Positions 47,893-64,000 of a stretch of DNA of 64,000 nucleotides are shown here, piece by piece. The stretch comes from a virus (Duplodnaviria; Caudoviricetes): positions 64,001 through 128,000 of IMG/VR virus record IMGVR_UViG_3300037507_003370, one strand, 5' to 3'. The notes under the pieces were generated by a model. The model made no database searches. It was given only the letters and a program-made list of their open reading frames with translations, and was not told the origin of the DNA. Each line of letters opens with the position of its first letter. The stretch's first letter is position 1. The translations under genes were made by a program, and so were the position numbers.

Positions 47893-48540
47893 TCATTTCA
47901 TGTTAATAATGTTTTGTACGCTATTGTATTTTAAATTATAAGACTCTGTTTTGCATAAATCAAATGATTCATTTAGTATTTCGAAAAGGAGCATATTCTT
48001 ATTGTTGTTCGTTATCTCAGTAAAAGTTTTCAAATGTTCTGGATGTATAATAAAAGACTCTGCCCAGTATGGTTCTAGATTATAGAAAACATACTCAACA
48101 TTATTATCTGTGATAGTACATCCTAGGCGAAAATTAATATTTTTATTAGTAACGAATACGACATTATTTTTTATAGTTTTTTTTATAGGAATTTTCCATA
48201 CAATACCGGAACTTAAAACTAAAGTTGGATACTCGTTATCTATATGATTTAATCCAAGATTTAGTGCATATGATTGTCCATATCTAGAATACTCTTCGTT
48301 ATATACTATCTCTGTACATTTTGGAAAGTTTATTTTTTTTCTTATTTTTTCAAAATCGAAACCAAGAACTATTATTAGTTTTTTTATTTGTTCAATATTA
48401 TTGATCAAAGAATTAATTTGATGATTTAATAAGAAGTCTGTTTTTTGATTAATCCTTATTGGTAAAAGACATTTAGACCCAAAAGATTTCATTCCTTTGG
48501 TAATTTCGTGAGATAGTAATATGACGTTATACTCACTCAT
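47893..48540 (-). CDS. LicC/MobA-like nucleotidyltransferase, degenerate
   Basis: VILLS...GMKSFGSKCLLPI...LLNHQINSL...IIVLGF..EKI...IVYNEEY...GQSYALNLGL. The canonical AAG.G.R is missing. Confidence 0.6.
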   Translation of the reverse strand: MSEYNVILLSHEITKGMKSFGSKCLLPIRINQKTDFLLNHQINSLINNIEQIKKLIIVLGFDFEKIRKKINFPKCTEIVYNEEYSRYGQSYALNLGLNHIDNEYPTLVLSSGIVWKIPIKKTIKNNVVFVTNKNINFRLGCTITDNNVEYVFYNLEPYWAESFIIHPEHLKTFTEITNNNKNMLLFEILNESFDLCKTESYNLKYNSVQNIINMK

Positions 48541-49058
48541 ATAGAAAATATGTCTCTATTTGTTTCTTTAATTTTTTCTAAAATATTTATTTGATTATTC
48601 TTATTGTATATCATAAAATTTGAGAAAGATGTTAGAAATCCATTATATTTATCTCCTTGTGGACTTATCGCACCAAAATCTTGGTTATTTGAATTTTTTA
48701 GTACTTCATCAATCTTAACGAAGTATTCTGAAGACACTTCTTTAATGTTTTCAAACACTACATAATGTGTTGTATCATGTTTTTTCTTATTGGTATCAAG
48801 CACAACATCAATTGATTCTTCTAGAGGATAATCTTCTAACATTATATCATGTAATTTCCATGGATATTTTATCTCTTCATCTTGTAATTCCTGAAGATAC
48901 GTGAAGAGTTGCTGAAAATCATAGGCATATTCTGGCTTAAATAAAAAAGAACAACATCCTATACTAGCATCATAATTCAAACACTCTTTAATTTTTTCTG
49001 GAATAAATTCATCAACAAAAATCAAAAGATATATTTTATAACTTTTTGTTTCAAGCAT
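48537..49058 (-). CDS. Hypothetical protein, possibly a degenerate GT-A-fold protein
   Basis: Intact, coupled ORF in the glycosylation cluster. Fold call is weak. Confidence 0.45.
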   Translation of the reverse strand: MLETKSYKIYLLIFVDEFIPEKIKECLNYDASIGCCSFLFKPEYAYDFQQLFTYLQELQDEEIKYPWKLHDIMLEDYPLEESIDVVLDTNKKKHDTTHYVVFENIKEVSSEYFVKIDEVLKNSNNQDFGAISPQGDKYNGFLTSFSNFMIYNKNNQINILEKIKETNRDIFSI

Positions 49059-49476
49059 GTCTGATCATCTCCATTTTAATTAAAGAATCATCATATGTTA
49101 TATTCACTATCATTATAGTTTTTATATCATTGAGAGCATCTGTTATAGTCTTTTCTAAAAGCAAATTTTTTGTAAAAGTATTATCAAACAATATCTTATT
49201 CACTTGATCAATATTTATTTTATCTTGACAAATATCATTTATAACTTTTTCCGTATTCTTAAAAGAGAAGAACAATCTACCATTATTGATTTTAATTTTT
49301 TCAGAAAGAGCAAATATAAATGCAGAGATATCTTCTTTCCTTATGGTCTCTAATTCTGAAAACCAAAGAGAATCTATCGATCCTGATACTATTTCGTCAA
49401 TTTGCGAAATATGAACGTTTGATCCTTTGGAAAGTTTGTAGCTATCGGAAACATATAAATTGATTGTTTTATGCAT
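49051..49476 (-). CDS. Truncated class I SAM-methyltransferase-like protein
   Basis: IDEIVSGSIDSLW..ELE.I...I..F...L..KI...NGRLFF matches the post-motif-I half of Methyltransf_11-type proteins. No GxG motif. Confidence 0.4.
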   Translation of the reverse strand: MHKTINLYVSDSYKLSKGSNVHISQIDEIVSGSIDSLWFSELETIRKEDISAFIFALSEKIKINNGRLFFSFKNTEKVINDICQDKINIDQVNKILFDNTFTKNLLLEKTITDALNDIKTIMIVNITYDDSLIKMEMIRHA

Positions 49477-50371
49477 AATCGACCACCGTGTTGTTAGCGA
49501 GTGAAAATATCTCTGAGATATCAGATATAAAATTATGGTTATTTAAAATATTCTTATTTTTTTCTATATTCATTTTTCTAATAATTTGATCGTACTGAGT
49601 ATTTAATTGAGAAAACATTGACAATATAGAAGCTGTATCCGGAGTAAAAAATATACTCTGGTTATTAGAAGAGTTTTGATGAGGGGTTAAAGAGACAGCC
49701 CCAAAAAAATTTGCATATAAATAATTTGTGAACTTATGTTCATCAATATGTAGTATCATTTTAGCAGATTTGATCTTGTTCATTAAAGGATCATCAGAAT
49801 AATCAGAGCAATGATCGACATTCAATCCTTCTTTTTTTAGTTCGTTGATAATTGATTTAATCATTTCCGGATCCGTATCACTGTGCAGAACTAAAACATC
49901 AATATTCTTATTTAACTGCAACAGATCTACTTGTCCGAAAACCTGATCCAAATTAGGTATAGAATGAAATACATTTGGATGACCAATAGACTTTATTCCT
50001 TTATATGTTTCATTGTCTAAACATAATATGTATTCATATTTAGATATAGCTTTTTTAACAGCTTCATTCAAGTTCACAATTCTACCTTCAATAATTAAAA
50101 TCGTTGACACGCCATCTATCGATTTATCTCTTTCGTTATCAGATCCTAATGTTACATTAAAATTATAACCCAAATCATTACTTGATGGACCTATGTAGCA
50201 ACCATCCATTTTTGCTGGCCCCGACTTAATAGTAAATGAGTGGTTTGATTTTTCACAAATTAAGCTGAATAAATGATCAAAACATCCTCCAATAGCATTA
50301 TATGCTATATGATAAGAGTCTTTATAGCTACATCTTCTTATTGCATTTTTTACACTATATCCAATAAACAT
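49469..50371 (-). CDS. Glycosyltransferase-like protein (GT-B/CgeB-like, divergent)
   Basis: KNIDVLVL...IINELKKEGL.V......L..KIKSAKMIL....ANFFGAV.L resembles the GT-B C-terminal half. Confidence 0.45.
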   Translation of the reverse strand: MFIGYSVKNAIRRCSYKDSYHIAYNAIGGCFDHLFSLICEKSNHSFTIKSGPAKMDGCYIGPSSNDLGYNFNVTLGSDNERDKSIDGVSTILIIEGRIVNLNEAVKKAISKYEYILCLDNETYKGIKSIGHPNVFHSIPNLDQVFGQVDLLQLNKNIDVLVLHSDTDPEMIKSIINELKKEGLNVDHCSDYSDDPLMNKIKSAKMILHIDEHKFTNYLYANFFGAVSLTPHQNSSNNQSIFFTPDTASILSMFSQLNTQYDQIIRKMNIEKNKNILNNHNFISDISEIFSLANNTVVDYA

Positions 50372-51510
50372 AATTTTTTCCCTACTTCTTGATAGCTGAA
50401 TTGATTGGTCATTAGTTTTGATTGATCTGATTTATATTTTAATAATTCTTTATTGGTTTTATAAATCTCTATTGCGTTTCTTATGGTCTGTCTGATACTT
50501 AAAACAGAAGGACTCATACCCACCTCATATTCTGAATCATGATCTAGAAGTCCATTACCAGAATATTCTACTTGTTCTTCTATTGCTGGTATAATAAAAC
50601 CATTATCATTATTCACGTAATCTGTTGGTCCTGTATTTTCTACACATATTGGAATATTTCCAAATCTCATAGACTCAGCTAGTGGTCTACAAAAAGCTTC
50701 TCCTTTAGATGGACATACGAATATATCACAGTAATAGTGTAATTTTAAGATATCATATCTGCTGATATTTTCTGTAATCAGAAGCACTTTACTACCCAGC
50801 CCTTTATGAAATCTCAATGTAGATAATTCTTTTTCTAAAGATTTGATAAAAGAATCTTTTTTCTCGTCTGGAATATGAGAAGTTTTAATTACCAAAACAA
50901 CTTTTTCTCTTTCCATTATTTCTGACCTAAAAGCCTTAATCAAATTAATGATATTTTTTCTTTTAATAAAAGTACCAATAAAGTATAACTTGATATAATC
51001 TTTATATTTTGTATTTAATCCTACAAAATCCCTATTGTCTGTTTCTATAACAGATATCGCGCTATCTATTTCTTCACACGGTATTACTTGAGATATTGTA
51101 TGTATTGGTTTATGAACACCTGAGTCTACTAATGCTCTTTTTTCTATAGAGCTTGGTACACATATTTTATCAAGCTGATTAAGTGGTTGTATTATTCCAT
51201 AATTTTTGGTTAAATTATTAACTTCAAATACATTTATGCCGACATTAGAAGATGTTTTGTCGGTATAGATTGCTTGAGGAAGCACTTTTTGTATGATAGT
51301 ATCAAATTTTGTAATTGTCTCTGATTCTAGAATCCTAACATATTCTGGTATGTTTTGAGCAATTTCTTGAGAAAAGTATACTGGGTGAATTTTTAAACTA
51401 TAGTTTTTTTCATTACAAGCATATATTATAGAGTTAAGATATCCTAGAGAAGCATTTCCCCAGCCATCATTTTGCCTATATGGAGCTATGTACAAAATAT
51501 TTTTAGACAT
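50350..51510 (-). CDS. Family 4 (GT-B) glycosyltransferase
   Basis: LYFIGTFIKRKNIINLIKAF...CDIFVCPSKGEAFCRPLAESMRFG...TGPTDYV. Start set at ATG 51510 (MSKNILYIAPY). Confidence 0.85.
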   Translation of the reverse strand: MSKNILYIAPYRQNDGWGNASLGYLNSIIYACNEKNYSLKIHPVYFSQEIAQNIPEYVRILESETITKFDTIIQKVLPQAIYTDKTSSNVGINVFEVNNLTKNYGIIQPLNQLDKICVPSSIEKRALVDSGVHKPIHTISQVIPCEEIDSAISVIETDNRDFVGLNTKYKDYIKLYFIGTFIKRKNIINLIKAFRSEIMEREKVVLVIKTSHIPDEKKDSFIKSLEKELSTLRFHKGLGSKVLLITENISRYDILKLHYYCDIFVCPSKGEAFCRPLAESMRFGNIPICVENTGPTDYVNNDNGFIIPAIEEQVEYSGNGLLDHDSEYEVGMSPSVLSIRQTIRNAIEIYKTNKELLKYKSDQSKLMTNQFSYQEVGKKLCLLDIV

Positions 51511-53182
51511 TATTTTTTGTCCTGTCATTGGCGTAATTAATAAAATCTTCTGTTTTAACAGCATCTGGATTAGCCAAAGCATATTTAGTTAAATTACGAT
51601 TCTCTATATTTTTATTTAAGAAATTAATCATATCTTCAAAATGATAAGGCTTTGTATTTGTGAATCCTTCTATGATAAATCCATAATCACTATGTTTTAA
51701 TAGGGATAGATTTCTCATATTATATATATCTTCTTCATTTAGATTATTATAGCAAACATGCTTGAAAGCATTGAAAGACTGGTTAAAGTTAGAACTTAAA
51801 TTTTTATAATCTATAGGTTTTTTATAGTAAGCATTATTAGATCCTGTCCATGATTTTTTTGTAGGTTGGAGCATTAATGAATCAAAAACAGACTCCCATA
51901 AATTAGCAGCATTATCCCAGGTGTATTTATTTTCTGTTAATTCTCTAGTTAGTTTAGATTTTTGTTGTTTTTCTTCGTTAGACATGCTAAAAAATTCGAA
52001 TAAAGTTTTAACTAAAATTCCATTATTTGGATAGCATCTAAATGCTTCTGTTTCTAATTCCTTAAAATATCTATCGGGAGGAATGCTAAAAGCATTTAAG
52101 TTTTTTATAATATCTGTCATAGCGCTATAATCAACAGATGCTAAAGGAATACCACAAGCGGCAGCTTCAACTTGTGGCATTCCAAAACCTTCACATATAG
52201 CATATTGAACATAAATATCGAATACGTTATATATTAGAGATAGTTGTTCAGACGAAACACCGTCTGTAACCGCTGGGAATACTGCACTTTTTTGTTTGCA
52301 ATATGGGCAATACTTAACTACATGATTGAAAGTATGGGCATGTATTCCACGGCATTTTTTACAAAAATATGTAAATAATACTCTTTTTGCAACTTCGTTT
52401 TCTTTTAGTAGCGCCGGTATATTCCACCCAGCATCAGGATACGTTGTATGCACATACAAGTACAAATCCTTACCATCTGCAGAATTATTTTTTTGATAAG
52501 TATTAAGTAAAATCCTAAAGCTTTGGAAAAGATCTGGTAGTAGTTTCCTTTTTTGATTACGCATTACGGTGCCAATAATACGAGCATCAGTATTAATCCC
52601 CAACTGTTTCCTAGCAAGATTTTTTTCTATGGGCTTAAATATATCTAGATCTACTCCAGGAGAAGCAGATCCGCAATATTTAATAAGGTTATTTGTTTGT
52701 TCAGATAAAACATGACCTCCCCATTCGCTATAGGACAAAACAGCATCTGCATCCATATAAACATCAAGCCATTCTTCTTGTTGTGGATAAGAGTCAACAG
52801 TTGGCATAACAGCCCATCTATAATAGGGCCTTAGTGGAGAGTATCTCTGGTATGAATTCATCCAAAAATCTCTTATATCAAAAACTATATCTGGCTTAAA
52901 GTCGTATACAACCCTATCAAATCTCCATTTACCAAAAGCATTTTCTCCAGAACTTGAATATTCTTGAAATCTTGGATCTTCTTGATTGACAGCATTTGGA
53001 TAATATCTCCATGGTATTTCCTGATCTCTTGGATCTCCAGGCATGCCATAAGATGCAAATTCTGCTATCTCATATTTGTTTTTTGCATAGAGTCTTTTAA
53101 GAATTTCTCTAGCATATACAGAATAGCCAGAACTTAAAAAGCTGGCTTCAGAACACATTAAAATTTTTGGTTTGGTTGTCAT
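51503..53182 (-). CDS. Family 4 (GT-B) glycosyltransferase with CxxC...CxxC insertion
   Basis: GTVMRNQKRK..PDL...YNVFDIYVQYAICEGFGMPQVEAAACG.P...VDYSAM. Start set at ATG 53182. Confidence 0.88.
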   Translation of the reverse strand: MTTKPKILMCSEASFLSSGYSVYAREILKRLYAKNKYEIAEFASYGMPGDPRDQEIPWRYYPNAVNQEDPRFQEYSSSGENAFGKWRFDRVVYDFKPDIVFDIRDFWMNSYQRYSPLRPYYRWAVMPTVDSYPQQEEWLDVYMDADAVLSYSEWGGHVLSEQTNNLIKYCGSASPGVDLDIFKPIEKNLARKQLGINTDARIIGTVMRNQKRKLLPDLFQSFRILLNTYQKNNSADGKDLYLYVHTTYPDAGWNIPALLKENEVAKRVLFTYFCKKCRGIHAHTFNHVVKYCPYCKQKSAVFPAVTDGVSSEQLSLIYNVFDIYVQYAICEGFGMPQVEAAACGIPLASVDYSAMTDIIKNLNAFSIPPDRYFKELETEAFRCYPNNGILVKTLFEFFSMSNEEKQQKSKLTRELTENKYTWDNAANLWESVFDSLMLQPTKKSWTGSNNAYYKKPIDYKNLSSNFNQSFNAFKHVCYNNLNEEDIYNMRNLSLLKHSDYGFIIEGFTNTKPYHFEDMINFLNKNIENRNLTKYALANPDAVKTEDFINYANDRTKNNV

Positions 53183-53209
53183 AGATAGAATTTTTATTTT
53201 AGTAAACAA

Positions 53210-53238
53210 TATGGTCCACGCTCTTAACATGGACCATA
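53210..53238 (-). terminator. Probable intrinsic terminator downstream of ssb
   Basis: On the minus strand UAUGGUCCAUG-UUAAGAG-CGUGGACCAUA forms an 11-bp stem with one G-U pair, followed by UUGUUU. Confidence 0.6.
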
Positions 53239-53251
53239 CTGCTTACATTAT

Positions 53252-53620
53252 TCAGAAACTAACGGCTTCTGCTTGTTCTGATGGCTTCTTAGAAACTTTC
53301 GTTATCTTGGAAAAATTATTTACTCTAACCTTAAGAGTATTGTGCTTAACTCCATCCTTTTCCCAAGCATCGTTTCTTAGAGTGCCTTCTACTAATACTA
53401 AGTCGCCCTTTTTAAACGACGAAGCAATAATTTCTGCCCCACTATCCCAAGCTTCGCAAGAAATAAATGAGGTAATCTTATCCTTATTGCCATTTGCCCT
53501 ACTAAATTCCTTTGAAACAGCAACTGTAAAATTAACTACAGATGTCTGCTTATCTCCAGACCCTACTGTTCTAATCTCAGGATCTCTAGTTAGATTACCA
53601 CGCAAAATTACAAGATTCAT
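53252..53620 (-). CDS. ssb: Single-stranded DNA-binding protein
   Basis: MNLVILRGNLTRDPEIR...VVNFTVAV...FISCEAW...KKGDLVLVEG.LR...W. AAGGAG SD 7 nt before ATG at 53620. Confidence 0.95.
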   Translation of the reverse strand: MNLVILRGNLTRDPEIRTVGSGDKQTSVVNFTVAVSKEFSRANGNKDKITSFISCEAWDSGAEIIASSFKKGDLVLVEGTLRNDAWEKDGVKHNTLKVRVNNFSKITKVSKKPSEQAEAVSF

Positions 53621-53657
53621 AATCAATCTCCTTTTAAAGGGTCAAAAACTCTATACT

Positions 53658-53685
53658 ATTGTATCAGATGACACGAGTGTGTCAA
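53658..53685 (-). promoter_or_regulatory. Sigma70-type promoter for ssb (TTGACA-N16-TACAAT, extended -10) with overlapping inverted repeat TGACAC-N4-GTGTCA
   Basis: Minus strand reads TTGACA CACTCGTGTCATCTGA TACAAT. The -35 box overlaps the dnaE-C stop codon. Palindrome at 53669-53684. Confidence 0.7.
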
Positions 53686-55292
53686 GTACTCGGCTCAAAA
53701 CATTTTTCTACAACGAATCCTTCACGACCATTTGTCAATTTATTGCCAATAAATACTAAAACTCTTTCTTCTTTTACTATATCAGAATACTTTTCATATT
53801 GTTCTGGAAATAGTATAACAGAATCAACCGTACCTGTTCCATCAAAGATTTCGATAAAGGACATTTCTGCTCCTTTATTTTTTCCTGTTTTAGTTTTGAC
53901 AATATTAACTCTGCCAATTTCTCCAATAATGGCTATTTTTTTACTATGGATACTATTTTTATAATCTTTACAGGTTACAATATTAAAATTACTCATATCA
54001 TAACAATCTGTTTTACTATAAGATATAGTTGTGCCAAGATAAAAAGACTCCATCTCTGTTATCCACTCCATAGTATCTTCTAAGCTATATGGAGGATTAA
54101 CTAAGCTTTTAATATATCCTTCTATAATAGTTTTTCTATTTTTGTTAATTTTATGGTTATTTAATAAAAAGGTTAATATAGATTCTAGTGTAGTAAACTT
54201 TTCGAATTCACAATTTTTTTCTATAAATTCGCATTCTTTTTTAGTTAAGTTAGTAATTATATCAAGATAAAATAACATTTCTTTTCTTGTTGATTTGAAC
54301 TCATCTAAACATCCACATGAAACTATAGCCTTTGCGGCCGAAATATTTATACGATTTAATAACAAGAATGCAACAGAAAACTTATTGGTGAATATATTTT
54401 TATCACATTTAGTTAGATTGTCCTGAATGCTGTTATAGACCGAATCTCCAACACCTTTAATATTAGTAATTCCAAAATATATTATATCATTAATTAATGA
54501 AAAGTCTTTCTTTGCGATAGATAAGTTTGGTATTCTAATATCTATATCCATTTCTATAGCATTTCTAACTAATTCTTTGATTTCCTGTTGAGGATCTATT
54601 TTATCTTTTGCAAACTTTAAATAAGATGTGAAAAATATTTTTGGAAAATGAGCCTTCGCATATGCTGATAAAAAACCATTAATAGCATAGCTTACAGCAT
54701 GGCTTTTATTAAAAGAATATCTTTGAGATTTTTCTATCCATCCAAATATTTGATCAGCTTCTTCTGAATTAACTATGTTATCTTTTATGCATCCTGATAA
54801 GAAGATTTTCTTAATTTTTGCCATTTCTTCTGGCTTTTTCTTTCCTATCGCTTTTCTTAACATGTCTGCTTCTTTGAGATCAAATCCGGCTATCGCTCTA
54901 GCTATTTGCATAGCTTGTTCTTGATAAATCATTTCGCCATAAGTGGATTTTAGAGAATCTTCTAATGCTGGATGGAAGTAATCTACGCTTTCCTTACCAT
55001 TTTTCTTATCTATAAAATGATCAGAAACGCTTTTATTATCTCTAATAGCCTCAAGACATCCTGGCCTCATAATACTAATTAAGGCAGACAGTTGTTCTAT
55101 ATTTTCTGGCTTCAATTTTTTGGCCATAGACTGACCAAGTCTAGATTCAAGCTGAAAACAGCCCTTAGTATTACCAGATCCAATTAATTCCCATGTCTTT
55201 TTACAGTTGAGATCGATATTTTCTGGTATAAACTTAATTCCGCTATCGTCTGCGGGGAATTTGCATCCGCATTCAAACGCAAGATACTTCAT
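53682..55292 (-). CDS. dnaE: DNA polymerase III alpha, C-terminal subunit (fingers, HhH, OB fold)
   Basis: GCFQLES, RPGCLE, TYGEMIYQEQAMQIA, ADMLRKAIGKK, YSFNKSHAVSY, GITNIKGVG, OB fold ending in VILFPEQY. Confidence 0.93.
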   Translation of the reverse strand: MKYLAFECGCKFPADDSGIKFIPENIDLNCKKTWELIGSGNTKGCFQLESRLGQSMAKKLKPENIEQLSALISIMRPGCLEAIRDNKSVSDHFIDKKNGKESVDYFHPALEDSLKSTYGEMIYQEQAMQIARAIAGFDLKEADMLRKAIGKKKPEEMAKIKKIFLSGCIKDNIVNSEEADQIFGWIEKSQRYSFNKSHAVSYAINGFLSAYAKAHFPKIFFTSYLKFAKDKIDPQQEIKELVRNAIEMDIDIRIPNLSIAKKDFSLINDIIYFGITNIKGVGDSVYNSIQDNLTKCDKNIFTNKFSVAFLLLNRINISAAKAIVSCGCLDEFKSTRKEMLFYLDIITNLTKKECEFIEKNCEFEKFTTLESILTFLLNNHKINKNRKTIIEGYIKSLVNPPYSLEDTMEWITEMESFYLGTTISYSKTDCYDMSNFNIVTCKDYKNSIHSKKIAIIGEIGRVNIVKTKTGKNKGAEMSFIEIFDGTGTVDSVILFPEQYEKYSDIVKEERVLVFIGNKLTNGREGFVVEKCFEPST

Positions 55293-55984
55293 GATTCTGT
55301 ATTTTTAAAAGACCCTTCGAATTTGATTTGCGGAGCTAGTCTTCTATGTAACTTCAAAAATCTTATCAATATTTCAGCACAATCTTTTACGTCTTTTAAA
55401 GCGTCGTGTGCTCCGTCTTTGGATATTCCAAGATATGATCGCAGATTATCCAGAGATATGCTTTTTATATCTTTATTATTTTCAAGCCAATAATAAGCTA
55501 AATTCATTATGTCTAATGTATCTCTGGGATAAAATAAGTCACACTCTCCATCTTTAGTGACATATCCAAACTTTTTTGTATATCTATCAACAATTTTAAG
55601 ATCAAATTTAAATATATTATATCCGGCAGTTACAGGAGCAGAAAACATATTTTTTTTTGTTCTATTTATATGGTAAAGCTCTAAATAGCTTTTGAACATT
55701 GACCAAGCCTGAGATTGACTAATAGAATTTTTCCATAAGTCTAAAATGTCAGATGCTTGGCATTTTTTTACTTTGGCATGAAAATCCAATATATCAGATT
55801 CTGCATAATCAAAATCTGGATTATCTTCTAACTTAGATGGTTTAACTTGGATATTAAATTCAGAGTCATCTATTATAGAAAGATCATAAGGGTCTATCAT
55901 GATTGCAGCAATTTGGACAGGACTGCATGAGGTTGGGTCTGATCCGTCGGTTTCGAAATCAAAAACGCATATTTTGTTTTTCAT
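55289..55984 (-). CDS. DnaQ-like DEDDh 3'-5' exonuclease (epsilon-like proofreader)
   Basis: ExoI VFDFETDG, ExoII GYNIFKFD, ExoIII HDALKD. ATGA-coupled to dnaE-C. Confidence 0.9.
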   Translation of the reverse strand: MKNKICVFDFETDGSDPTSCSPVQIAAIMIDPYDLSIIDDSEFNIQVKPSKLEDNPDFDYAESDILDFHAKVKKCQASDILDLWKNSISQSQAWSMFKSYLELYHINRTKKNMFSAPVTAGYNIFKFDLKIVDRYTKKFGYVTKDGECDLFYPRDTLDIMNLAYYWLENNKDIKSISLDNLRSYLGISKDGAHDALKDVKDCAEILIRFLKLHRRLAPQIKFEGSFKNTES

Positions 55985-58359
55985 AATGTCCTAAAAGGCA
56001 TATTTTCTATAGCCGTAGAAATGTTAAAAAGATTGTTAAAATAAATAGATGGTCCAATTACTGGACCGCAGGACCAAGGTGGTATTTCATAAGGTACGCA
56101 CCCTATCTTATAGTTGAAACTGAATGGTCTGTCAAGGGTTATTTTTGTGAGCGTTTGCTCTTTTATATAGTCCATCGAAACGATATTTAAAGACGCAAAA
56201 ACCTTTTCATAACGACGTATATCTGTATCTGTCGGTAATAATTGTTTCTTAGGAATCCAATATTCAATTTTTGTTGCACCTCTTTTAAATCTTGGAACAA
56301 AATTTCCAGACATAAATAAATATCTCAGATCCGTCCTGTCTGTAAAACAAGCAATTTTTTTATATGGTAACCAATTCCATAAGCCGTTATAAGATATAAA
56401 AGGAAAATTATCAGAATATGTTGTTATAAATTGTGGAGATCTATACCATTCATCTAATGATGTTGTCTCATCTCCGGTTTTAACTACCGGAATACCGTCA
56501 GCATCTAGATATGTTTGGTTAGCTAGTTTTGAATTGATAATAGTTCTGAATTTTTTGAAAGATTCTAGTGCTATAGGATACGGATCGTTTTTGACAGAGA
56601 GGTAAAGTTCTTCTAAGTCTATTTTATAGAAACCAAAAAATTTTGTTGTTTCCTCAGGATCTGTATCAGCATCCAAAAAATATTCAATCAATTGTTTTCC
56701 GTATATGCCAAGATCAAAGCTTTCTTTTTGGGTTGTTGAATCTATGCATGACCCGGGCCATCTAATGTCGTAACGCGCATTATTGCATGGTGGAGAGCTT
56801 TTATTAGGGTCTTGCGGAGATATTTTAGAATACGGATCAATGATCATCTGGTCAAAACTTGACTTTCCTCCAGAAATATAAAATCTAATTAAGTAAGGAT
56901 CTGTAATATAGTGATTTTCTATTAAAATATTATTTTGTTCATCGCAAGGAATGCCGTTAACCCCAGGCTGAGAAAGACTATTATCTTTAATTGTATCGTC
57001 TGGTTCTGGCATTGGTTTATAAAATTTTTCATAAACCTTGTCATCTTTTTCTACTTCCCGAATGTCCTTAACTGTATCAGTATATAGATATGGTTGAGTT
57101 TTTCTATGCCAAATATATGGTTTTTGTGTTTTAGGATTAAGTTTAAAAAAGTAAACAGGAGCAGATCTATTAAATCCATTAGATCTATCTTGATTAATAG
57201 GATCTGGATTGTAGTATTGTCCTTCTAATAGAGTATATTTTTTCTTATTTAAAAAATACTTAGGGAAAATATCATTTTTAGAAAATATTTCTTTAACACT
57301 TAATTTTTGTACTTGTGTTTTGATATTAAAAAGCTGTGTCAGATCTTCATCAAAAAATAATGCATCATATAATATAACATCTAATAAATTAGTTGTTTCT
57401 GTTATCATATATAATCCTCGAAGAGACCAAGGATCTATATTTACGTCAGAAAAAAGAGTAGAACCACTATGAGAACTATACAAATAAAAATTAGTACCAT
57501 ACTGTTCTAGTGCGGTAAATCTTTTTGCAATCGTACATTCGGATGCAAATGTGCCTCTATTTTTTTCTAAAATATTAGATACTGATATAGAACCTGGAAC
57601 TTCATATAATTCTTCTTCTGGAATCACGCTTAAAAGATCTCTATATGTTGCATGAAGACACAGTGCGTTGATCCTACAGCACCCGGCGTCTTTTTGGAAA
57701 GTTCTGATTTTTTTATATAGAACCCTATCTCTGTTATTTGGCTGTACTAATGTGAACACATCTCCAATTTGAAGAGATTCGAAGGTAGTAAATTCTTGTG
57801 GAAATAAATCTCCTGACCAGTCAGCATAAAAGTAAGATCCCCCACTTAATCTACCAAGAATAGTTTTTGGGCCGGCATTAATAGTAAGCCATTTATCTGA
57901 GTTTCTATTGTTTATATACAGAGGCTCTAGCTTTCTATAAACTGTTACAGACTCATCTGCAAAGTTTTGAAAGGTTCCTATTCCATATGCTCTGTCGCTA
58001 GTAGCATATATTGTACTAAAATAGTATCCAGCATTTATTGTTGTTTTTTTAATATCAAAAGATACAGGAATATCTATTTTTTTAGGAGATGTTATAAATT
58101 TAACACTTGATGGTTCTGCAACTTGTCCTTCTATGTTCGAACCCCAAACCCAAAACGTGCCATTTTCTTTCAATGCTACAGAGTGTGTCAGACCCATCCT
58201 TGCTTGAATCCAAGGAGAGCTATCGTTAGTACTATTTGTTAAAACCTCGTACTCTTTTCCTGCCTCTACTGGTCTATTGTGACCTAGTCCTAACTGACCA
58301 TGTCCATTATCCCCATATGCATACAATTTACCTTCAACAATCTTGATAACATGAGCCAT
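55981..58359 (-). CDS. RCC1/BLIP-II-repeat protein (792 aa) with an internal copy of the neighbouring small-protein domain
   Basis: LYAYGDNGHGQLGLG...MGLTHSVALKENGTFWVWGSNIEGQV...AGYYFS. C-terminal part not recognised. Confidence 0.75.
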   Translation of the reverse strand: MAHVIKIVEGKLYAYGDNGHGQLGLGHNRPVEAGKEYEVLTNSTNDSSPWIQARMGLTHSVALKENGTFWVWGSNIEGQVAEPSSVKFITSPKKIDIPVSFDIKKTTINAGYYFSTIYATSDRAYGIGTFQNFADESVTVYRKLEPLYINNRNSDKWLTINAGPKTILGRLSGGSYFYADWSGDLFPQEFTTFESLQIGDVFTLVQPNNRDRVLYKKIRTFQKDAGCCRINALCLHATYRDLLSVIPEEELYEVPGSISVSNILEKNRGTFASECTIAKRFTALEQYGTNFYLYSSHSGSTLFSDVNIDPWSLRGLYMITETTNLLDVILYDALFFDEDLTQLFNIKTQVQKLSVKEIFSKNDIFPKYFLNKKKYTLLEGQYYNPDPINQDRSNGFNRSAPVYFFKLNPKTQKPYIWHRKTQPYLYTDTVKDIREVEKDDKVYEKFYKPMPEPDDTIKDNSLSQPGVNGIPCDEQNNILIENHYITDPYLIRFYISGGKSSFDQMIIDPYSKISPQDPNKSSPPCNNARYDIRWPGSCIDSTTQKESFDLGIYGKQLIEYFLDADTDPEETTKFFGFYKIDLEELYLSVKNDPYPIALESFKKFRTIINSKLANQTYLDADGIPVVKTGDETTSLDEWYRSPQFITTYSDNFPFISYNGLWNWLPYKKIACFTDRTDLRYLFMSGNFVPRFKRGATKIEYWIPKKQLLPTDTDIRRYEKVFASLNIVSMDYIKEQTLTKITLDRPFSFNYKIGCVPYEIPPWSCGPVIGPSIYFNNLFNISTAIENMPFRTL

Positions 58360-58389
58360 GGTCCTTCCTTTAATCCTTTGATTTTATTT

Positions 58390-58578
58390 TTAACTATTGA
58401 TATTTTTAATTTCTACAACAGTATCATCTGACATAAAGTTTTGTTCATTGTTGCTAACTTTGACACAATTTATTGCTCTGCAACAGGAAACTCTTACTGT
58501 CTCTGTTTTTCTGTATGTTTCTCCACCAAAAGAAAAAACAGTATTTACGACTAAGTCTCTAAAAGCAGCGGTTGACAT
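58390..58578 (-). CDS. Small SH3-like/beta-barrel hypothetical protein with CC motif (62 aa)
   Basis: FRDL...VFSFGGETYRK...SCCRAINC. Fills the gap after dnaE-N and is homologous to a segment of the next gene. Confidence 0.75.
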   Translation of the reverse strand: MSTAAFRDLVVNTVFSFGGETYRKTETVRVSCCRAINCVKVSNNEQNFMSDDTVVEIKNINS

Positions 58579-58582
58579 AGTT

Positions 58583-60424
58583 TTACTCCGTAGTTAATAA
58601 TGACTGAATACACATAATTTTATCTAACATACCAATACCAAGTATATCAAATTTAACAATACCCAGGGCTTCCAAATCTTGCATTTCCATACCCGCGATA
58701 TTGGTACCCGTTTTAGTATCATACACCATAGGACAAACTTCATTTAAGTTATTGGCTGAAATAGCTATTCCTGCAGCATGTTTAGATTGATTGCATTTCG
58801 TTCCTTCTAATCTAATAGCTTGTTCAAATCTTTTTGCAAACATGCCGGATATGTTATTATCTTTATCTATTTTTACCCAATCCTTGAATTTATCTGGCGT
58901 ATTTTCTAGTGCCCACATAATTATAGAAGATTCTCCTGTTTCTTCTTTCATCTCTTGGAGATCATCAGCTATTTTAGCCTCATCTGGTATATTTTTAGTA
59001 ATTTGATTCATTTCATCAAAAGACAATCCTCCATATACTCTTAGGACTTCTTTTAAGGCTCCTCGTCCTTTCATAGTATTGAATGTAATCATTTGAGAAA
59101 CTCTGTTTTCTCCATATTTATTTTTTATATAGGATATGATTTCATCTCTTTTTGTCATTGGAACGTCTATGTCTATATCTGGCATAGAAATTCTATTTTC
59201 TGTATTACGTCCAGCATTATAAAATCTTTCAAACAGAAGATCATATTGTATTGGATTGATATTTGTTATCCCTAACAAATAAGAGACTAAACATCCAGCA
59301 GCACTGCCTCTTCCTGGTCCTGGCAACCATGAATTTTCTTTTACATATTTTACTATATCTTGGATTATTAAGAAATATCCAGATAAGTTAGCCCCTTGTA
59401 AAACCTCTAGTTCTTTTTTAATTCTTTCAACATATATATTTTTGTCTGATTCTGACAATGAATTTAGATCTCTATCTCTCCAGCCGTTTCTGCATAGTTG
59501 TCTTAAATACTCGTCTTCGTTTTCTATTACTTCGGGTAGTGTTGGCTTGTCTAATATATTATAATCTTCACACATTGAATCTATTAATAGAGTATTGTCT
59601 ATTTCAGATTCTGTATGTATTTTATTCATTTCTTCTCCGGATAATATATAGTAATTATCGGATTTGAAGAAAGCTCCCAAAGGAACCGCTTCGTCATTTA
59701 AAAGCTTTTTATTTATATCTTTAAATGTAGACTTAAGATTATTGCACAATAAAACCCTCTGATCTATAGCGTCTTCTTTATTTGCATAATGAGCATCATT
59801 TGTTGCAACAACTTTGATTTTTAATTTGTTAGATAAGTCTCTTATCATATCTGTTATAACTTTTTGTTCAGGACTATACTCTAGATCCATAAGCTGAGAT
59901 TCTAGAAATAAGTTGTCTCTGCCAAAAAGATCAATAAGATTATTAGCATGAAGTTTAGCCTGATTCATGTCTTCTTGCAATAAGCAATTATGCATGGTTG
60001 ACCCCATGTGTCCTGTGATACATATGAGTCCCGAAAGATCCATATCGGAGAGGTTCTGAATTGAGATCCTAGGCTTTCTATAAAAGTAGTCTGGCCTGTT
60101 GGTCTCAGAAACTAAACGAACTAAATTTTTCCATCCTGTATGGTTTTTGGCCAATACCAACATATGTTTCAGTTGTTGATTATCTTTGTTTTTTATTTTA
60201 GCATCATATTCGGATATATATAGCTCACACCCTAATATTGGTTTAATTTTTTTGGATTTTAGTGCTTGGTAAAAAGATACGCAGCCAGAAATTGTTCCAT
60301 GGTCTGTTATAGCACAAGACTTTGCTCCTATTGATAAACATCTATTTGCTATTTGTTCTGGCTTTGATAATCCGTCCAATAAAGAATAGTGACTATGAAC
60401 ATGCAAGGGTATATAATTTTTCAT
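58583..60424 (-). CDS. dnaE: DNA polymerase III alpha, N-terminal subunit (PHP, palm, thumb)
   Basis: LHVHSHYSLLDG, ITDHG, GCELY, TNDAHY, GPGRGSAAG, LLFERF, MPDIDID, KHAAG, KFDILG. Confidence 0.95.
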   Translation of the reverse strand: MKNYIPLHVHSHYSLLDGLSKPEQIANRCLSIGAKSCAITDHGTISGCVSFYQALKSKKIKPILGCELYISEYDAKIKNKDNQQLKHMLVLAKNHTGWKNLVRLVSETNRPDYFYRKPRISIQNLSDMDLSGLICITGHMGSTMHNCLLQEDMNQAKLHANNLIDLFGRDNLFLESQLMDLEYSPEQKVITDMIRDLSNKLKIKVVATNDAHYANKEDAIDQRVLLCNNLKSTFKDINKKLLNDEAVPLGAFFKSDNYYILSGEEMNKIHTESEIDNTLLIDSMCEDYNILDKPTLPEVIENEDEYLRQLCRNGWRDRDLNSLSESDKNIYVERIKKELEVLQGANLSGYFLIIQDIVKYVKENSWLPGPGRGSAAGCLVSYLLGITNINPIQYDLLFERFYNAGRNTENRISMPDIDIDVPMTKRDEIISYIKNKYGENRVSQMITFNTMKGRGALKEVLRVYGGLSFDEMNQITKNIPDEAKIADDLQEMKEETGESSIIMWALENTPDKFKDWVKIDKDNNISGMFAKRFEQAIRLEGTKCNQSKHAAGIAISANNLNEVCPMVYDTKTGTNIAGMEMQDLEALGIVKFDILGIGMLDKIMCIQSLLTTE

Positions 60425-61467
60425 TCTATGCTTCCTGGAGCTTTGTACTTTCCTACACTATAACCAGGAATCGTGTATTCGTCAACAACTGCATTCATAC
60501 CTTTTAGCTCTATGTCGTGTTTAACTTGCTCACACTTTGTCATAAATTGATTTTTTGCAATAAGCTGTCCATCTCTATACTCTATTGTGGGAAGAACGTG
60601 AGTGTTATCAAAATTACTTTTTCCAAAGTGACATAACTTACTACACATCCATGTTTTATTTAATCTAGGTTTTTTTGTATTTTTAATAACTTCAAATTTT
60701 TCTCTTAGCATACTTTCTGTTTTATAAATATCAGAACTATCAAATGTCATAGAAAAAGGACCGCCATCATTTATAAAAAATATCGTTATAATTATATGTT
60801 TAATTTCTGGATATAGTTTTTGTACAGCATAGAAGTATATCATTAATTGAGGATCTGTTTCTAGCTTAGACTGTGTTTTTTCTTCTCCTGTTGCCCAATT
60901 AAGTCTTTTTCCTGTTTTCCAGTCTATAATTTCTATGGTATCTTCTCCAACTTTTGTGATCAGGTCTATCGTTCCTTTTATAGCCAAATTTCCTTTTAGT
61001 GAATCTCCATTATTTAATTTATATGAATATTCTGCCCACTTTTTATCTATAGATATGTCGAATCTTTGTTCTGGACAAAGTATTTGTCTATTTCTTGGAT
61101 CAAAAAGACCGGAGCCATAATTTATTGCTTTATATACCCAGTCTCTACAATCAGAAAAATCTTTGTTAGACCATTTGTGATGAGAGAATTGTTCGCTGTA
61201 ATACTTGTATACAGATTCGATGATCTTGTCTAAATCATAATTATTTGTTAAAATTTCTCCAACTATTTCATCATTGCATGTTTTTTCGTTATTCTGCATC
61301 GCCTGTTTAATAACAGCTAAAATTTCTAATACTTTATGTACTATAGTGCCCTTATCTGCTTTTTGATTAGACGGACCTCTCCATCCTAAAACATATTCGA
61401 AAAAATATTGTTGCTCACACATACAATGAGTATTATACGACGAGCTGCGAAAATATGTAATTATAAT
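60421..61467 (-). CDS. PD-(D/E)XK exonuclease (RecB/AddB/Cas4-like), probable ATT/ATA start
   Basis: GTIVHKVLE, PEQRF, KGTIDLI, IIDWKTG, QLMIY, terminal C-x3-C...C. The in-frame upstream YFRSSSYNTHCMC motif has no ATG/GTG/TTG before it, and an AAGGA SD precedes ATT at 61467. Confidence 0.85.
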   Translation of the reverse strand: MIITYFRSSSYNTHCMCEQQYFFEYVLGWRGPSNQKADKGTIVHKVLEILAVIKQAMQNNEKTCNDEIVGEILTNNYDLDKIIESVYKYYSEQFSHHKWSNKDFSDCRDWVYKAINYGSGLFDPRNRQILCPEQRFDISIDKKWAEYSYKLNNGDSLKGNLAIKGTIDLITKVGEDTIEIIDWKTGKRLNWATGEEKTQSKLETDPQLMIYFYAVQKLYPEIKHIIITIFFINDGGPFSMTFDSSDIYKTESMLREKFEVIKNTKKPRLNKTWMCSKLCHFGKSNFDNTHVLPTIEYRDGQLIAKNQFMTKCEQVKHDIELKGMNAVVDEYTIPGYSVGKYKAPGSIE

Positions 61468-62063
61468 AGTATTATTCCTTTATTTTTGAGAAATTCTATA
61501 ATTTGATTATTTTGTTCATCTATATTCAGATTCTGATTATCAATAATTAAATCAAAATTATTTTGATCATATTGATCCGGATCTAATGCCATCTCACTAG
61601 CATGAAAAGAATTATAAGGATTTCTCGTCAGCTTAATAACAAAACCTCTAGCTTTTTTAACTGTATCAACTTCATTAGGAAATCTACAATCGGCAATTAT
61701 AGCCATATCTAAATTTTCTTTATTAATACGTCTAACTATAGCGTCAGACCAAACACTTTGTTTCATTCGTCTAAAAATATCTGTGCCAACAATTTGCATA
61801 ACTTCTCTAGCAGACAATTGGCGATTTTCCCAATAACAATCTACTAACTCATTTTTTTTAATATCCGATCCATAGCATTGTTCATAGGTCAAACCAAGTA
61901 TATCAATACATATATTTTGTTTCAATGGATCAGCAAAATTATATATAGCAATACTATTTTCAATAGTATGCTTATTGTATACAGATTGAACAAATTCGGA
62001 ACAAGTAGTTTTACCCGACTGTTTCCTTCCAGCAAATGCTATTATTTTAGTTTTAGTCATCAT
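61461..62063 (-). CDS. Deoxynucleoside monophosphate kinase (T4 gp1-like)
   Basis: IIAFAGRKQSGKTT, FADPLK, SAREVMQIVGT, IADCRFPNE. Confidence 0.9.
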   Translation of the reverse strand: MMTKTKIIAFAGRKQSGKTTCSEFVQSVYNKHTIENSIAIYNFADPLKQNICIDILGLTYEQCYGSDIKKNELVDCYWENRQLSAREVMQIVGTDIFRRMKQSVWSDAIVRRINKENLDMAIIADCRFPNEVDTVKKARGFVIKLTRNPYNSFHASEMALDPDQYDQNNFDLIIDNQNLNIDEQNNQIIEFLKNKGIILL

Positions 62064-63225
62064 ATATATTAGTTATATTTTTAAGGTTATCTATTATTAT
62101 AGAACAATCAGTGTCAGCTATGTCTGTTGTTACGAAATTAGGAACATGAATATTATAGGTTTTTTTGCATTTTTCAATTATTTTTTTAGTAGCTTCTATA
62201 CCAGCGGCATCATTGTCTAATAAGAGTATTAGTTCCATAGCGCCAGAAGTGTCTAAAATCATTTTTTGTCTATCGCTCATAGAGGAGCCAAATATGGCTA
62301 CGCTATTTCTTATTCCGCATTCTTCAAGCTTCCATACATTTCCAGGACTTTCTACAATGATAGCAACTTTAGTTTCTTTGATATAATGTTTGGCAAACCA
62401 GTAATTGTACAGATGGTTCTGTGCCTGAAACCCTGTATTATGTTTCCATTTTGGATATTTCCATCTATCTTCTACTCTAGGACATTGTTCTTCTGATGAA
62501 TGATAAGAATTACAGCTGTCGCATTTCTCAAAAATACTTCTACCAGAACATCCTGTCATGAATTTATAGTTATCATCATATATTGGTACAACTATTCTAT
62601 TATACATTTCTTTGTCTGATTTGTTACATAATCCAACATCGTATTTATTCAATACGGTATTGTTAAATCCTCTAGATAAAAAATATTCCGCTGGCATAAT
62701 TAGACTTTTTCTAATATTATGTCTAGATATTTTTTGATCATAAATATTTTGTACTGGTTTGATCGAATTTACTAATCCGGCAAATATAGCCTTGTCTCTA
62801 TCTGTTTTAGATATCTTAATAGAATCAAAGTCTTTATCTAAAAATTGCATACCATATTTTAATGCTTCGTCGAAAGAACAAACCTTGTCTCCTTCTTTGA
62901 TCCAATCAAATTTTTTGTTGGATAAAACTCCGCGAATGAAACCTATGATTGATGATTTAAAATATTTTTCACATCCATGAGTTCTGCATTTCCAGTTTCC
63001 TCTGTAAACCTCTCCGTCAGGATACAAATTTAATGCTGACTTATTATCGCCACCATGAATTGGGCAACTCATAGTTATCATCTTACCAGTAGATTTGTAT
63101 TCTAAATCTAAACTATTCAATAAATCATCTATATTATCACATAAATGATCACAGACTAATTTTAGCTTAGCCTGATCATACGAATTCGATTTGGTCTTTT
63201 TCATTTTGGTTAGTGTCTGACTCAT
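62053..63225 (-). CDS. dnaG: DnaG-type DNA primase
   Basis: Zn finger CPIH...WKCRTHGC, RIVVPI...GCSGR, Toprim IIVESPGN and LLDNDAAG. Start could be 63225 or 63204. Confidence 0.88.
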   Translation of the reverse strand: MSQTLTKMKKTKSNSYDQAKLKLVCDHLCDNIDDLLNSLDLEYKSTGKMITMSCPIHGGDNKSALNLYPDGEVYRGNWKCRTHGCEKYFKSSIIGFIRGVLSNKKFDWIKEGDKVCSFDEALKYGMQFLDKDFDSIKISKTDRDKAIFAGLVNSIKPVQNIYDQKISRHNIRKSLIMPAEYFLSRGFNNTVLNKYDVGLCNKSDKEMYNRIVVPIYDDNYKFMTGCSGRSIFEKCDSCNSYHSSEEQCPRVEDRWKYPKWKHNTGFQAQNHLYNYWFAKHYIKETKVAIIVESPGNVWKLEECGIRNSVAIFGSSMSDRQKMILDTSGAMELILLLDNDAAGIEATKKIIEKCKKTYNIHVPNFVTTDIADTDCSIIIDNLKNITNIYDD

Positions 63226-64000
63226 CTATTATAAATCCACCAGAGTTATTTTTAGTTCTTGAAGTATTTAATAATTCCAATCTAGTTTTACCTTCTGTAA
63301 TCTTTGCACACCAGCCTTTCATATAGCAATTAATATAGTCATTATCATCCAATCCCCCTCCATGGCGACACACTAATGGCAATAATTTTCTATTACCACT
63401 CTCTGGGCCATCTTCTGCTATTTCCTCATCGCTCTTTCTCTTGAAAATACTGAAATTACTACATAGCCATATAATTCTATCAGAACCGCTAGCAGAATCT
63501 GTAGACTCTTTTGTTATACCGTCTCTGTTTAATTGTATAAATGCAACAATTGGCACCTGATACCTAACCGCAAAGTTGTGAAGGCTCGTCATCATAAATC
63601 CAAGTACTTGGTACTCTTTTAAGTCTTGGCTTATTCCAACGCTATCCATAAGCTTAAGATAATCATAAAATATTACGCAATCTTTTGCTTTTCCTTCCTC
63701 ATTTAATCCAACATCTTTAACTAGCCATCTACGCATTAATGCCAATTGATCTTCAAATGGTTTTCCTGCGATACTTTTATGATATAATTTGGTTTCTTTT
63801 ATCTCATTAACTGCAGAATATATTTTTTGTTTTTTCTCTGGCGATTCTGCAAATTTTCCAGTTTCTATCGAGTTTATTTCTGTTTCTGTAATCATTGCCA
63901 GTATTCTATTAACATGGTCTTCTTTATTCATTTCTGTATCCATATTTAATACAGGGATGCCTAATTTTGCGATATTGTAGCCCATATTGTCAGATAACAG
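63176..64000 (-). CDS. dnaB: DnaB-like replicative helicase, 5'-partial
   Basis: Frame is open to the window edge (LLSDNMGY, just after Walker A). Has VLNMDTEM, IFYDYLKL (Walker B), FIQLNR, SGSDRI. Confidence 0.92.
   Translation of the reverse strand: MLSDNMGYNIAKLGIPVLNMDTEMNKEDHVNRILAMITETEINSIETGKFAESPEKKQKIYSAVNEIKETKLYHKSIAGKPFEDQLALMRRWLVKDVGLNEEGKAKDCVIFYDYLKLMDSVGISQDLKEYQVLGFMMTSLHNFAVRYQVPIVAFIQLNRDGITKESTDSASGSDRIIWLCSNFSIFKRKSDEEIAEDGPESGNRKLLPLVCRHGGGLDDNDYINCYMKGWCAKITEGKTRLELLNTSRTKNNSGGFIIDESDTNQNEKDQIEFV

What the first reader, a model, noticed from the sequence alone, without database searches (positions are those of the whole stretch)
53682..60424. Intein-free split DNA polymerase III alpha: two genes separated by about 3.3 kb carrying three other genes
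Seen in sequence: dnaE-N (58583-60424) ends just after KFDILG, and dnaE-C (53682-55292) starts just before the GCFQLES motif. Established: in E. coli alpha all three catalytic Asp residues (DxD and the KFD motif) lie in the palm, and the fingers begin at about residue 560, so the break falls at the palm/fingers boundary. The cyanobacterial split-intein site (Y/CFNKSH) is intact here as YSFNKSH, and neither end has intein motifs. Inference: a heterodimeric C-family replicase that assembles non-covalently, with its DnaQ-like proofreader translationally coupled to the C subunit.
Basis: partly seen in the sequence, partly recalled or inferred. Interest (0 to 1): 0.8.

Follow-up and report, generated by a model that had tools for sequence, protein, structure and literature searches.

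The report
Two-piece phage DNA polymerase III
A large aquatic phage makes its only DNA-copying enzyme, a bacterial-type polymerase III, as two separate proteins with no splicing element; the same cut is fixed in well over a hundred related genomes and recurs in an unrelated group of Bacillus-family phages, so the two halves most likely just clip together.

Summary
Confirmed. dnaE-N (613 aa: PHP, palm, thumb, all three catalytic Asp) and dnaE-C (536 aa: fingers, HhH, OB) lie 3,290 bp apart with three genes between; no intein or Rfam intron. It is not an artefact: 268 fetched loci (175 distinct) are split at the same site, both halves have dN/dS about 0.03, and four complete genomes hold one copy of each half and no PolA or PolB. 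Corrections: the cut lies about 20 residues after the KFD Asp, after the first fingers helix, which a complex model docks into the C half (0.65 versus 0.00 controls; may be from memory of intact DnaE). The 3.3 kb gap is peculiar to this lineage; the usual gap is about 870 bp. New: dnaQ lies between the halves in 175 of 175 loci; single-chain relatives form two separate clades nested among split ones (probably one fission, two re-fusions); a distant group of ~50 kb Bacillaceae phages, including cultured phiT1, has the same cut. Activity is untested. Intein-free split phage polymerases are known in family B; I found no report for a full-length family C enzyme. New variant of a known kind.

The parts
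58583..60424 (-). dnaE-N, 613 aa: PHP domain (H8 H10 D17 H42 E67 H87 H139 D210 H212 kept), palm and thumb, catalytic D416, D418, D593, then a terminal helix (598-613) that docks into the C subunit
58390..58578 (-). 62-aa SH3-like beta-barrel protein with an invariant Cys-Cys at a hairpin tip; lies in the gap in about 200 of 220 split loci; role unknown, not universal
   Evidence: dN/dS 0.12
55981..58359 (-). 792-aa protein with N-terminal RCC1-like repeats; lineage-specific insertion (only this window, L001, L002); probably unrelated to the polymerase
55289..55984 (-). DnaQ-like DEDDh 3'-5' exonuclease, 231 aa (D9 E11 D128 H193 D198 invariant); between the halves in 175 of 175 distinct split loci; ATGA overlap with dnaE-C
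53682..55292 (-). dnaE-C, 536 aa: new N-terminal hairpin with C8-G-C10 and C30, fingers with intact YSFNKSH, HhH, OB fold
53252..53626 (-). single-strand binding protein (context)
60421..61422 (-). PD-(D/E)XK nuclease (context; upstream in split and fused relatives)
61461..62063 (-). deoxynucleotide monophosphate kinase (context)
62053..63225 (-). DnaG-type primase (context)
63176..64000 (-). DnaB-like helicase, cut by the window end (context)

Best explanation
The two genes are the subunits of the phage's replicative family C polymerase. They are translated separately from one replication operon and assemble without splicing. SHOWN: both halves are whole, complementary (no missing or duplicated segment), conserved and under purifying selection; no intein, no known intron, no other DNA polymerase of family A, B or C in complete relatives. 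INFERRED: the cut sits in the turn after the first helix that follows the third catalytic Asp; that helix (N 598-613) slots into the helical bundle of the C subunit (C 205-227) and the palm loop 367-406 packs on the FNKSH region, which rebuilds the normal DnaE active site; a short new hairpin with a CxC..C cluster at the C subunit's start probably caps the cut in most lineages but is dispensable. DnaQ is probably the proofreading subunit, possibly alongside an active PHP site; clamp and loader are probably borrowed from the host. INFERRED history: dnaQ came to lie inside dnaE once, in the ancestor of this aquatic phage clade; the gap later took up and lost other genes; two lineages re-fused with dnaQ moved elsewhere; a second phage group (phiT1-like) was cut at the same hinge, most likely independently.
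For: Domain split and catalytic residues (D416/D418/D593 in 81 of 81 sequences). Same break in 268 loci, tails of 20-30 variable residues after the Asp and ATG starts a few residues before the CGC motif. dN/dS N 0.036, C 0.031, DnaQ 0.033 over 8 independent close pairs. One palm and one finger match and no PolA/PolB/beta-clamp/clamp-loader match in four genomes rated complete, 223-244 kb. Rfam empty for window, gap and six relatives. Complex model N(280-613)+C(1-345): score 0.65, best of 3 controls 0.00; the mark was reached by 58 of 80 solved complexes and 2 of 110 mismatched pairs; runs agree in at least 83% of contacts, partner pLDDT at least 74; this is a split of a solved single chain, so the pass may be from memory. 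Isolated C half is poorly defined just where it should touch the palm (77-121, 190-195; shallow alignment could also cause this). Cultured Rossellomorea phage phiT1 and 15 related clusters carry the same cut, with no PolA match in phiT1. Trees and AU tests.
Against: No biochemistry or transcript data. Rfam misses undescribed introns. The structure pass can come from likeness to intact DnaE. Pfam models may miss a very divergent second polymerase. The root inside the phage clade is unresolved (three-way fork behind a long branch), so the count of fissions and re-fusions is less sure than the heterodimer itself.
Confidence: 0.85

Rival explanations
1. The halves are joined before or during translation (undescribed self-splicing intron, RNA trans-splicing or ribosome bypass), so the protein is one chain.
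For: Phage polymerase genes often carry introns (own knowledge); homing-endonuclease-like ORFs sit in the gap in some relatives (L137, L172).
Against: No Rfam match. The gap is wall-to-wall protein genes, from dnaQ alone (L290) to 4.5 kb of varied cargo, with only 4 bp between the dnaE-N stop and the next start in the window. N tails vary freely; C halves have their own conserved start and a new, selected N-terminal motif absent from every fused form.
Confidence: 0.04
2. The halves are joined by protein trans-splicing through an atypical, very short split intein.
For: Inteins are common in this gene family: cis-inteins and split-intein fractures occur at other sites in relatives (L146, L190, L200, L217). 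The C half begins with conserved cysteines.
Against: Only 0-10 residues follow the terminal helix of N and about 12 precede the homologous part of C; no Hint match although the same scan finds the intein in L146; no conserved His-Asn/Asn-Cys junction. Natural split-intein halves are 88-105 and 33-54 residues in PMC2677866. Many split lineages lack the cysteines altogether.
Confidence: 0.02
3. The halves work, but not as a stable pair: each complements or hijacks host Pol III parts, or the N half acts mainly as a nuclease/accessory enzyme.
For: No phage clamp or loader was found, so host replisome parts are probably used; PHP ligands are intact.
Against: The halves always co-occur, give matching major groups in separate trees, are exactly complementary, and have re-fused or fused close relatives at 49-60% identity. 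The DnaE active site needs fingers residues (established), and host DnaE is one chain with no free half to pair with.
Confidence: 0.06
4. History rival (compatible with the heterodimer): the clade's ancestor was single-chain and the gene was cut at the same hinge four or more times; fused clades are ancestral, not re-fused.
For: The hinge is demonstrably permissive: the distant phiT1 group is cut at the same place. Root position inside the clade is open.
Against: It needs dnaQ to land in the gap every time (175 of 175), whereas fused forms keep dnaQ in two different places (downstream after SSB and a glycosyltransferase in one clade, upstream in the other); the CGC start is shared by split lineages on all three main branches; three changes suffice for one fission plus two fusions.
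Confidence: 0.3
5. Assembly artefact or decaying pseudogene.
For: The window's own gap holds an odd 2.4 kb insertion.
Against: Same break in hundreds of independent assemblies and in a cultured phage; dN/dS about 0.03; the insertion is shared with L001 and L002 at about 72% polymerase identity.
Confidence: 0.005

Closest known systems
Split gp43 (gp43A/gp43B) family B polymerases of T4-like phages (as summarised in PMC2677866)
   Same: Phage replicase broken into two genes 2-3,000 bases apart, other genes in the gap, no intein; same working principle.
   Different: Family B (RRM palm), unrelated fold; here family C, with the proofreader gene fixed in the gap.
PhiKZ/chimallivirus DNAP-N + DNAP-C (PMC13648687)
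   Same: Two genes give a stable non-covalent polymerase; solved by cryoEM.
   Different: Family B-like; split lies inside the palm; extra clamp-derived subunit.
Cyanobacterial split-intein DnaE and 'fractured' phage DnaE genes (PMC2677866, PMC3919608)
   Same: Same protein family, encoded by two genes.
   Different: Those are ligated into one chain by split inteins, at other sites; here no intein, FNKSH site intact. The cyanobacterial break is described as single and irreversible; here single-chain forms nest among split ones.
Minimal split Pol III alpha of group 2.2 jumbo phages (Iyer et al. 2021, PMC7824862)
   Same: Intein-free family C module in two proteins, predicted to reconstitute.
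   Different: Minimal core only, genes far apart, cut within the catalytic module, accompanies a family B replicase; here full-length (PHP to OB), all catalytic Asp on one chain, sole polymerase.
Aeh1 nrdA genes-in-pieces (PMC2677866, PMC3045599)
   Same: Essential phage enzyme functional as two non-covalent pieces from one operon.
   Different: Ribonucleotide reductase split by a homing endonuclease; the main split here has dnaQ, not an endonuclease, in the gap (the extra palm split in L101/L128 does look Aeh1-like).
Rossellomorea phage phiT1 gp20/gp18 (GenBank PV767480.1)
   Same: Intein-free cut at the same hinge; annotated as two 'DNA polymerase III subunit alpha' genes; cultured.
   Different: About 28-31% identity; 53 kb genome; 49-aa ORF in the gap, no dnaQ match, no CGC motif; no paper found describing the split.

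Membership tests
Family C DnaE-type polymerase | PHP - palm/thumb - fingers - HhH - OB domain order, complete | tested here: met
   across the two ORFs; (OB match weak, E 4e-4)
Family C DnaE-type polymerase | Three catalytic aspartates (DxD and KxD) | tested here: met
   D416, D418, D593 invariant
Family C DnaE-type polymerase | Single polypeptide in the mature form | tested here: not met
   two ORFs with no splicing element found; mature form not observed
Family C DnaE-type polymerase | Polymerase activity | not testable with these tools
   needs reconstitution
Family C DnaE-type polymerase | Clamp-binding motif and C-terminal tau-binding domain | tested here: inconclusive
   no QADMF-like motif recognised by eye; protein ends after the OB fold
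Split-intein DnaE | Intein N part fused to the N extein and intein C part fused to the C extein | tested here: not met
   no Hint match, no room, no junction motif; positive control L146 detected
Split-intein DnaE | Break at the FNKSH site | tested here: not met
   YSFNKSH intact inside the C half
Intron-interrupted phage polymerase gene | Group I/II intron structure flanking the gap | tested here: not met
   Rfam: none at gathering or at E<=1 in the gap; undescribed introns not covered
Intein-free split phage polymerases (gp43A/B, PhiKZ type) | Two separately translated, conserved halves that are the genome's only replicase | tested here: met
Intein-free split phage polymerases (gp43A/B, PhiKZ type) | Family B fold | tested here: not met
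   family C: works like them, is not a member
Intein-free split phage polymerases (gp43A/B, PhiKZ type) | Stable non-covalent complex | tested here: inconclusive
   model supports it, 0.65 versus 0.00, possibly from memory of intact DnaE; not measured
Minimal split Pol III of group 2.2 jumbo phages | Minimal catalytic core only, beside a family B polymerase | tested here: not met
   full-length enzyme, no PolB match in complete relatives
DnaQ/epsilon DEDDh exonuclease | D-E-D-H-D active site | tested here: met
   D9 E11 D128 H193 D198 invariant
DnaQ/epsilon DEDDh exonuclease | Binds the alpha subunit | not testable with these tools
   DnaQ was not the scored partner in the one complex job; the long C-terminal tail that E. 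coli epsilon uses (own knowledge) is absent

The most novel reading that the evidence does not exclude
A full-length family C replicase that has worked as a non-covalent two-subunit enzyme since the origin of a large, globally spread aquatic phage clade (created when dnaQ came to lie inside dnaE), that gained its own cysteine clasp at the cut, re-fused into one chain twice, and whose cut site was found again independently by Bacillaceae phages: a natural, reversible hinge separating catalytic and DNA/nucleotide-binding halves of DnaE.
Probability: 0.5. Interest if true: 0.75.

Novelty: new variant of a known kind. Interest (0 to 1): 0.63.

Why it matters
Every characterised full-length DnaE works as one chain; even cyanobacteria, which encode it in two genes, splice it back. 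A natural intein-free cut shows that the palm-to-fingers covalent link is dispensable, defines a split point for engineering or domain-swap studies of bacterial replicases, and bears on whether unspliced cyanobacterial halves could matter. The clade offers split and single-chain relatives at 50-60% identity, a ready test of what gene fission and re-fusion cost, and phiT1 makes the test possible in a cultured phage. Practically, these genes are mis-read as fragments by annotation and would be dropped or re-joined in polymerase surveys.

Tried and rejected
No whole genome is held for the window, so genome content was taken from complete relatives. Idea that the 62-aa protein's Cys-Cys completes a zinc site with the C half's C8/C10/C30: not supported, since the two features do not go together (13 split loci with CGC lack the ORF nearby, 14 with the ORF lack CGC, and a Cys-less homologue sits in L189/L200); no fourth ligand specific to CGC lineages was found; zinc rode along but is not scored. 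Fold searches of the 62-aa protein gave only generic SH3-like barrels (best Z 5.4; no Foldseek E<=0.001) and Pfam, PHROGs and Atlas gave no named family; theta-like role not tested. In one search the control that kept C and DnaQ but replaced N scored 0.00; this is no evidence either way on DnaQ binding. No N-DnaQ or DnaQ-C fused ORF found. Promoter and terminator scans were at chance level. DUF1559 search in five genomes was empty with a silent control. First AU runs under the mixture model did not finish; repeated with LG+G4 on 35 rows. Bacterial genome scan gave four short or phage-like MAG contigs and one ordinary intact DnaE. Moraphages (PMC12619734) are PolB phages, not this clade. Yutin 2024 (PMC11348598), Timinskas 2014 (PMC3919608) and the 2026 survey (PMC12926913) do not mention an intein-free split DnaE; ten literature searches found none, but the library lacks most subscription papers.
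Full report
Observation. The 613-aa ORF at 58583-60424 matches PHP (7-177) and the whole DNA_pol3_alpha profile (305-596); the 536-aa ORF at 53682-55292 matches the finger domain (16-171), HHH_6 and weakly an OB fold; neither matches an intein family. The 3,290-bp gap holds a 62-aa ORF, a 792-aa ORF with RCC1-like repeats and a 231-aa DEDDh exonuclease whose stop overlaps the dnaE-C start as ATGA. The neighbours are helicase, primase, dNMP kinase, a PD-(D/E)XK nuclease, SSB and glycosyltransferases. Relatives lie on IMG/VR virus contigs up to 244 kb, some with terminal repeats, so the window is inferred to be a large phage. DUF1559 and DUF1501 genes in the gap of three relatives hint at a Planctomycetota host (own knowledge of those families; not tested further).

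Where the cut is. N residue 600 aligns with Taq alpha 625 and C residue 15 with Taq 637; C26 aligns with E. coli 589. A single-chain relative aligned through the junction puts the cut at about Taq 636-640. The N half therefore runs 20 residues beyond the third catalytic Asp (D593; E. coli D555 from own knowledge), through the first helix of the fingers, and the C half takes up at the next turn. Nothing is missing.

How widespread. Of 318 loci fetched from virus and metagenome collections, 268 are split at this site, 15 are single-chain, the rest are cut by contig ends; freshwater and marine (Tara) assemblies are both present. The usual gap is about 870 bp with the small ORF and dnaQ; the RCC1-like gene is confined to this window, L001 and L002. 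Gaps range from dnaQ alone to 4.5 kb of mixed cargo. dnaQ lies between the halves in 175 of 175 distinct split loci and ends within about 25 bases of the dnaE-C start in 164 of 172. Overlaps are, however, the rule in this operon (10 of 15 junctions). N tails are 20-30 variable residues after the Asp; most C halves begin with a new motif, F-x-C-G-C-x-F, plus a third Cys at position 30, folded as a confident hairpin and absent from all 25 fused forms. Catalytic Asp residues are invariant in 81 sequences and the nine PHP metal ligands are nearly so. Eight independent close pairs give dN/dS 0.036 (N), 0.031 (C), 0.033 (DnaQ), 0.12 (small ORF). The survey is biased towards relatives of the queries and capped at 80 loci a scan.

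Is it the replicase, and is it spliced? Four relatives rated complete each hold one palm match and one finger match and no PolA, PolB, beta-clamp or clamp-loader match. Rfam finds nothing in the window, the gap or six relatives. Inteins do occur in this gene family at other sites and the same scan detects them, but at this site there is no room and no motif. A complex model of N(280-613), C(1-345), DnaQ and zinc, scoring C, gave 0.65 against a best control of 0.00; that mark was reached by 58 of 80 solved complexes and 2 of 110 mismatched pairs; runs agreed in at least 83% of contacts and partner pLDDT was at least 74. The best-defined contacts join the N half's last helix (599-610) to C 205-227, with the palm loop 367-406 against the FNKSH region. 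Because intact DnaE is solved, this shows likeness more than binding; it does show why the cut is tolerable: the helix left on the N half acts as a docking peg.

History. The nearest single-chain proteins are 49-60% identical over the palm and sit in the same gene neighbourhood. They do not form one group: in concatenated trees they are two fully supported clades, each nested with split lineages, and separate N and C trees give the same two clades. AU tests reject monophyly of split forms (p 4e-5) and of fused forms (p 8e-7) (LG+G4, 35 rows; groups defined by gene structure). One fused clade keeps dnaQ downstream, after SSB and a glycosyltransferase, the other upstream. One fission with dnaQ in the gap, then two re-fusions, needs three changes; the alternative needs four or more cuts with dnaQ landing in the gap each time. 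The root inside the clade is open, so I put re-fusion at about 0.65-0.7.

A second lineage. The tblastn survey of cultured phages showed Rossellomorea phage phiT1 (PV767480.1, 52.8 kb) with dnaE in two genes, cut at the same place (N ends 19 residues after its KFD Asp; C starts MFDILDIPLDD), a 49-aa ORF between, no intron, no PolA and no DnaQ match. Fifteen related clusters at 62-86% identity have the same stand-alone C half, with different small ORFs in the gap. phiT1 lies outside the aquatic clade on a long branch, in an open fork with intact Bacillus phage enzymes; an independent origin is most likely but not proven.

The small ORF. It folds as an SH3-like barrel (pLDDT 92) with an invariant Cys-Cys on a hairpin tip, has no named family and was not found near fused genes or in one complete fused genome. 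It is absent from several split lineages and does not track the CGC motif, so it is not required for the split; an accessory role is possible.

Comparison. Intein-free split phage polymerases are known in family B (gp43A/B, PMC2677866; PhiKZ, PMC13648687). In family C the known splits are intein-ligated (cyanobacteria; fractured phage genes, PMC2677866) or a minimal module beside a PolB (PMC7824862). I found no description of a full-length intein-free DnaE heterodimer, within the limits of the library. It works like split gp43 but is not a member; it is a DnaE by every feature except the single chain.

Verdict. Real, conserved and most likely a functional non-covalent heterodimer (0.85). New variant of a known kind; interest 0.63, raised by the probable re-fusions, the repeat origin and a cultured test system, lowered by family B precedents and the lack of direct activity data.

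Noticed in passing
L101:6117-9110 (also L102, L105-L109, L128): dnaE-N is cut a second time, just before the catalytic DID motif, with a LAGLIDADG endonuclease ORF between and about 90 extra residues on the second piece; no intein or Rfam intron found: an apparent three-piece DnaE, Aeh1-nrdA-like.
   Followed up: partly
L146:6038-9117 (L147, L148) and L217:15970-18853: Classic split-intein plus free-standing endonuclease fractures (at GRG/SAAG and at FNK/SH) stacked on top of the main intein-free split.
   Followed up: partly
L323:1158-4440 (phage phiT1, PV767480.1); L329, L330: Same-site intein-free dnaE split in ~50 kb Bacillaceae phages and a Halobacillus 'plasmid' record; a cultured test system.
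   Followed up: yes
window 55981-58359, residues 191-232: The RCC1-like protein holds a segment resembling the neighbouring 62-aa protein, Cys-Cys included (hhalign E 0.0026, probability only 12%), also seen in L001; perhaps a duplicated domain.
   Followed up: partly
L126:7596-8579, L156, L217:12728-15083: DUF1559 prepilin-type and DUF1501 genes inside the dnaQ-dnaE-C interval, a hint of a Planctomycetota host.
   Followed up: partly
L137:8433-9128, L172:2130-2813, L189:11793-12821: Homing-endonuclease-like ORFs inserted right after dnaE-N: the gap is a landing site for mobile genes.
   Followed up: no
window 1-44787 (+): A run of very large ORFs (up to 2,957 aa), two with fibronectin type III domains, mostly without PHROG or Pfam matches; probably virion or tail proteins.
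   Followed up: no
window 47893-53230 (-): Cluster of glycosyltransferases and a nucleotidyltransferase-like gene right after SSB, conserved in split and fused relatives; possible DNA or capsid glycosylation.
   Followed up: no
L324:3911-8109 (Bacillus phage vB_BceM_WH1): dnaE annotated as three pieces with non-coding gaps of 400-700 bp, at other sites; possibly introns.
   Followed up: no
L318-L321: Contigs with this phage polymerase sit inside bacterial MAGs of unrelated taxa; probably mis-binned phage DNA.
   Followed up: no
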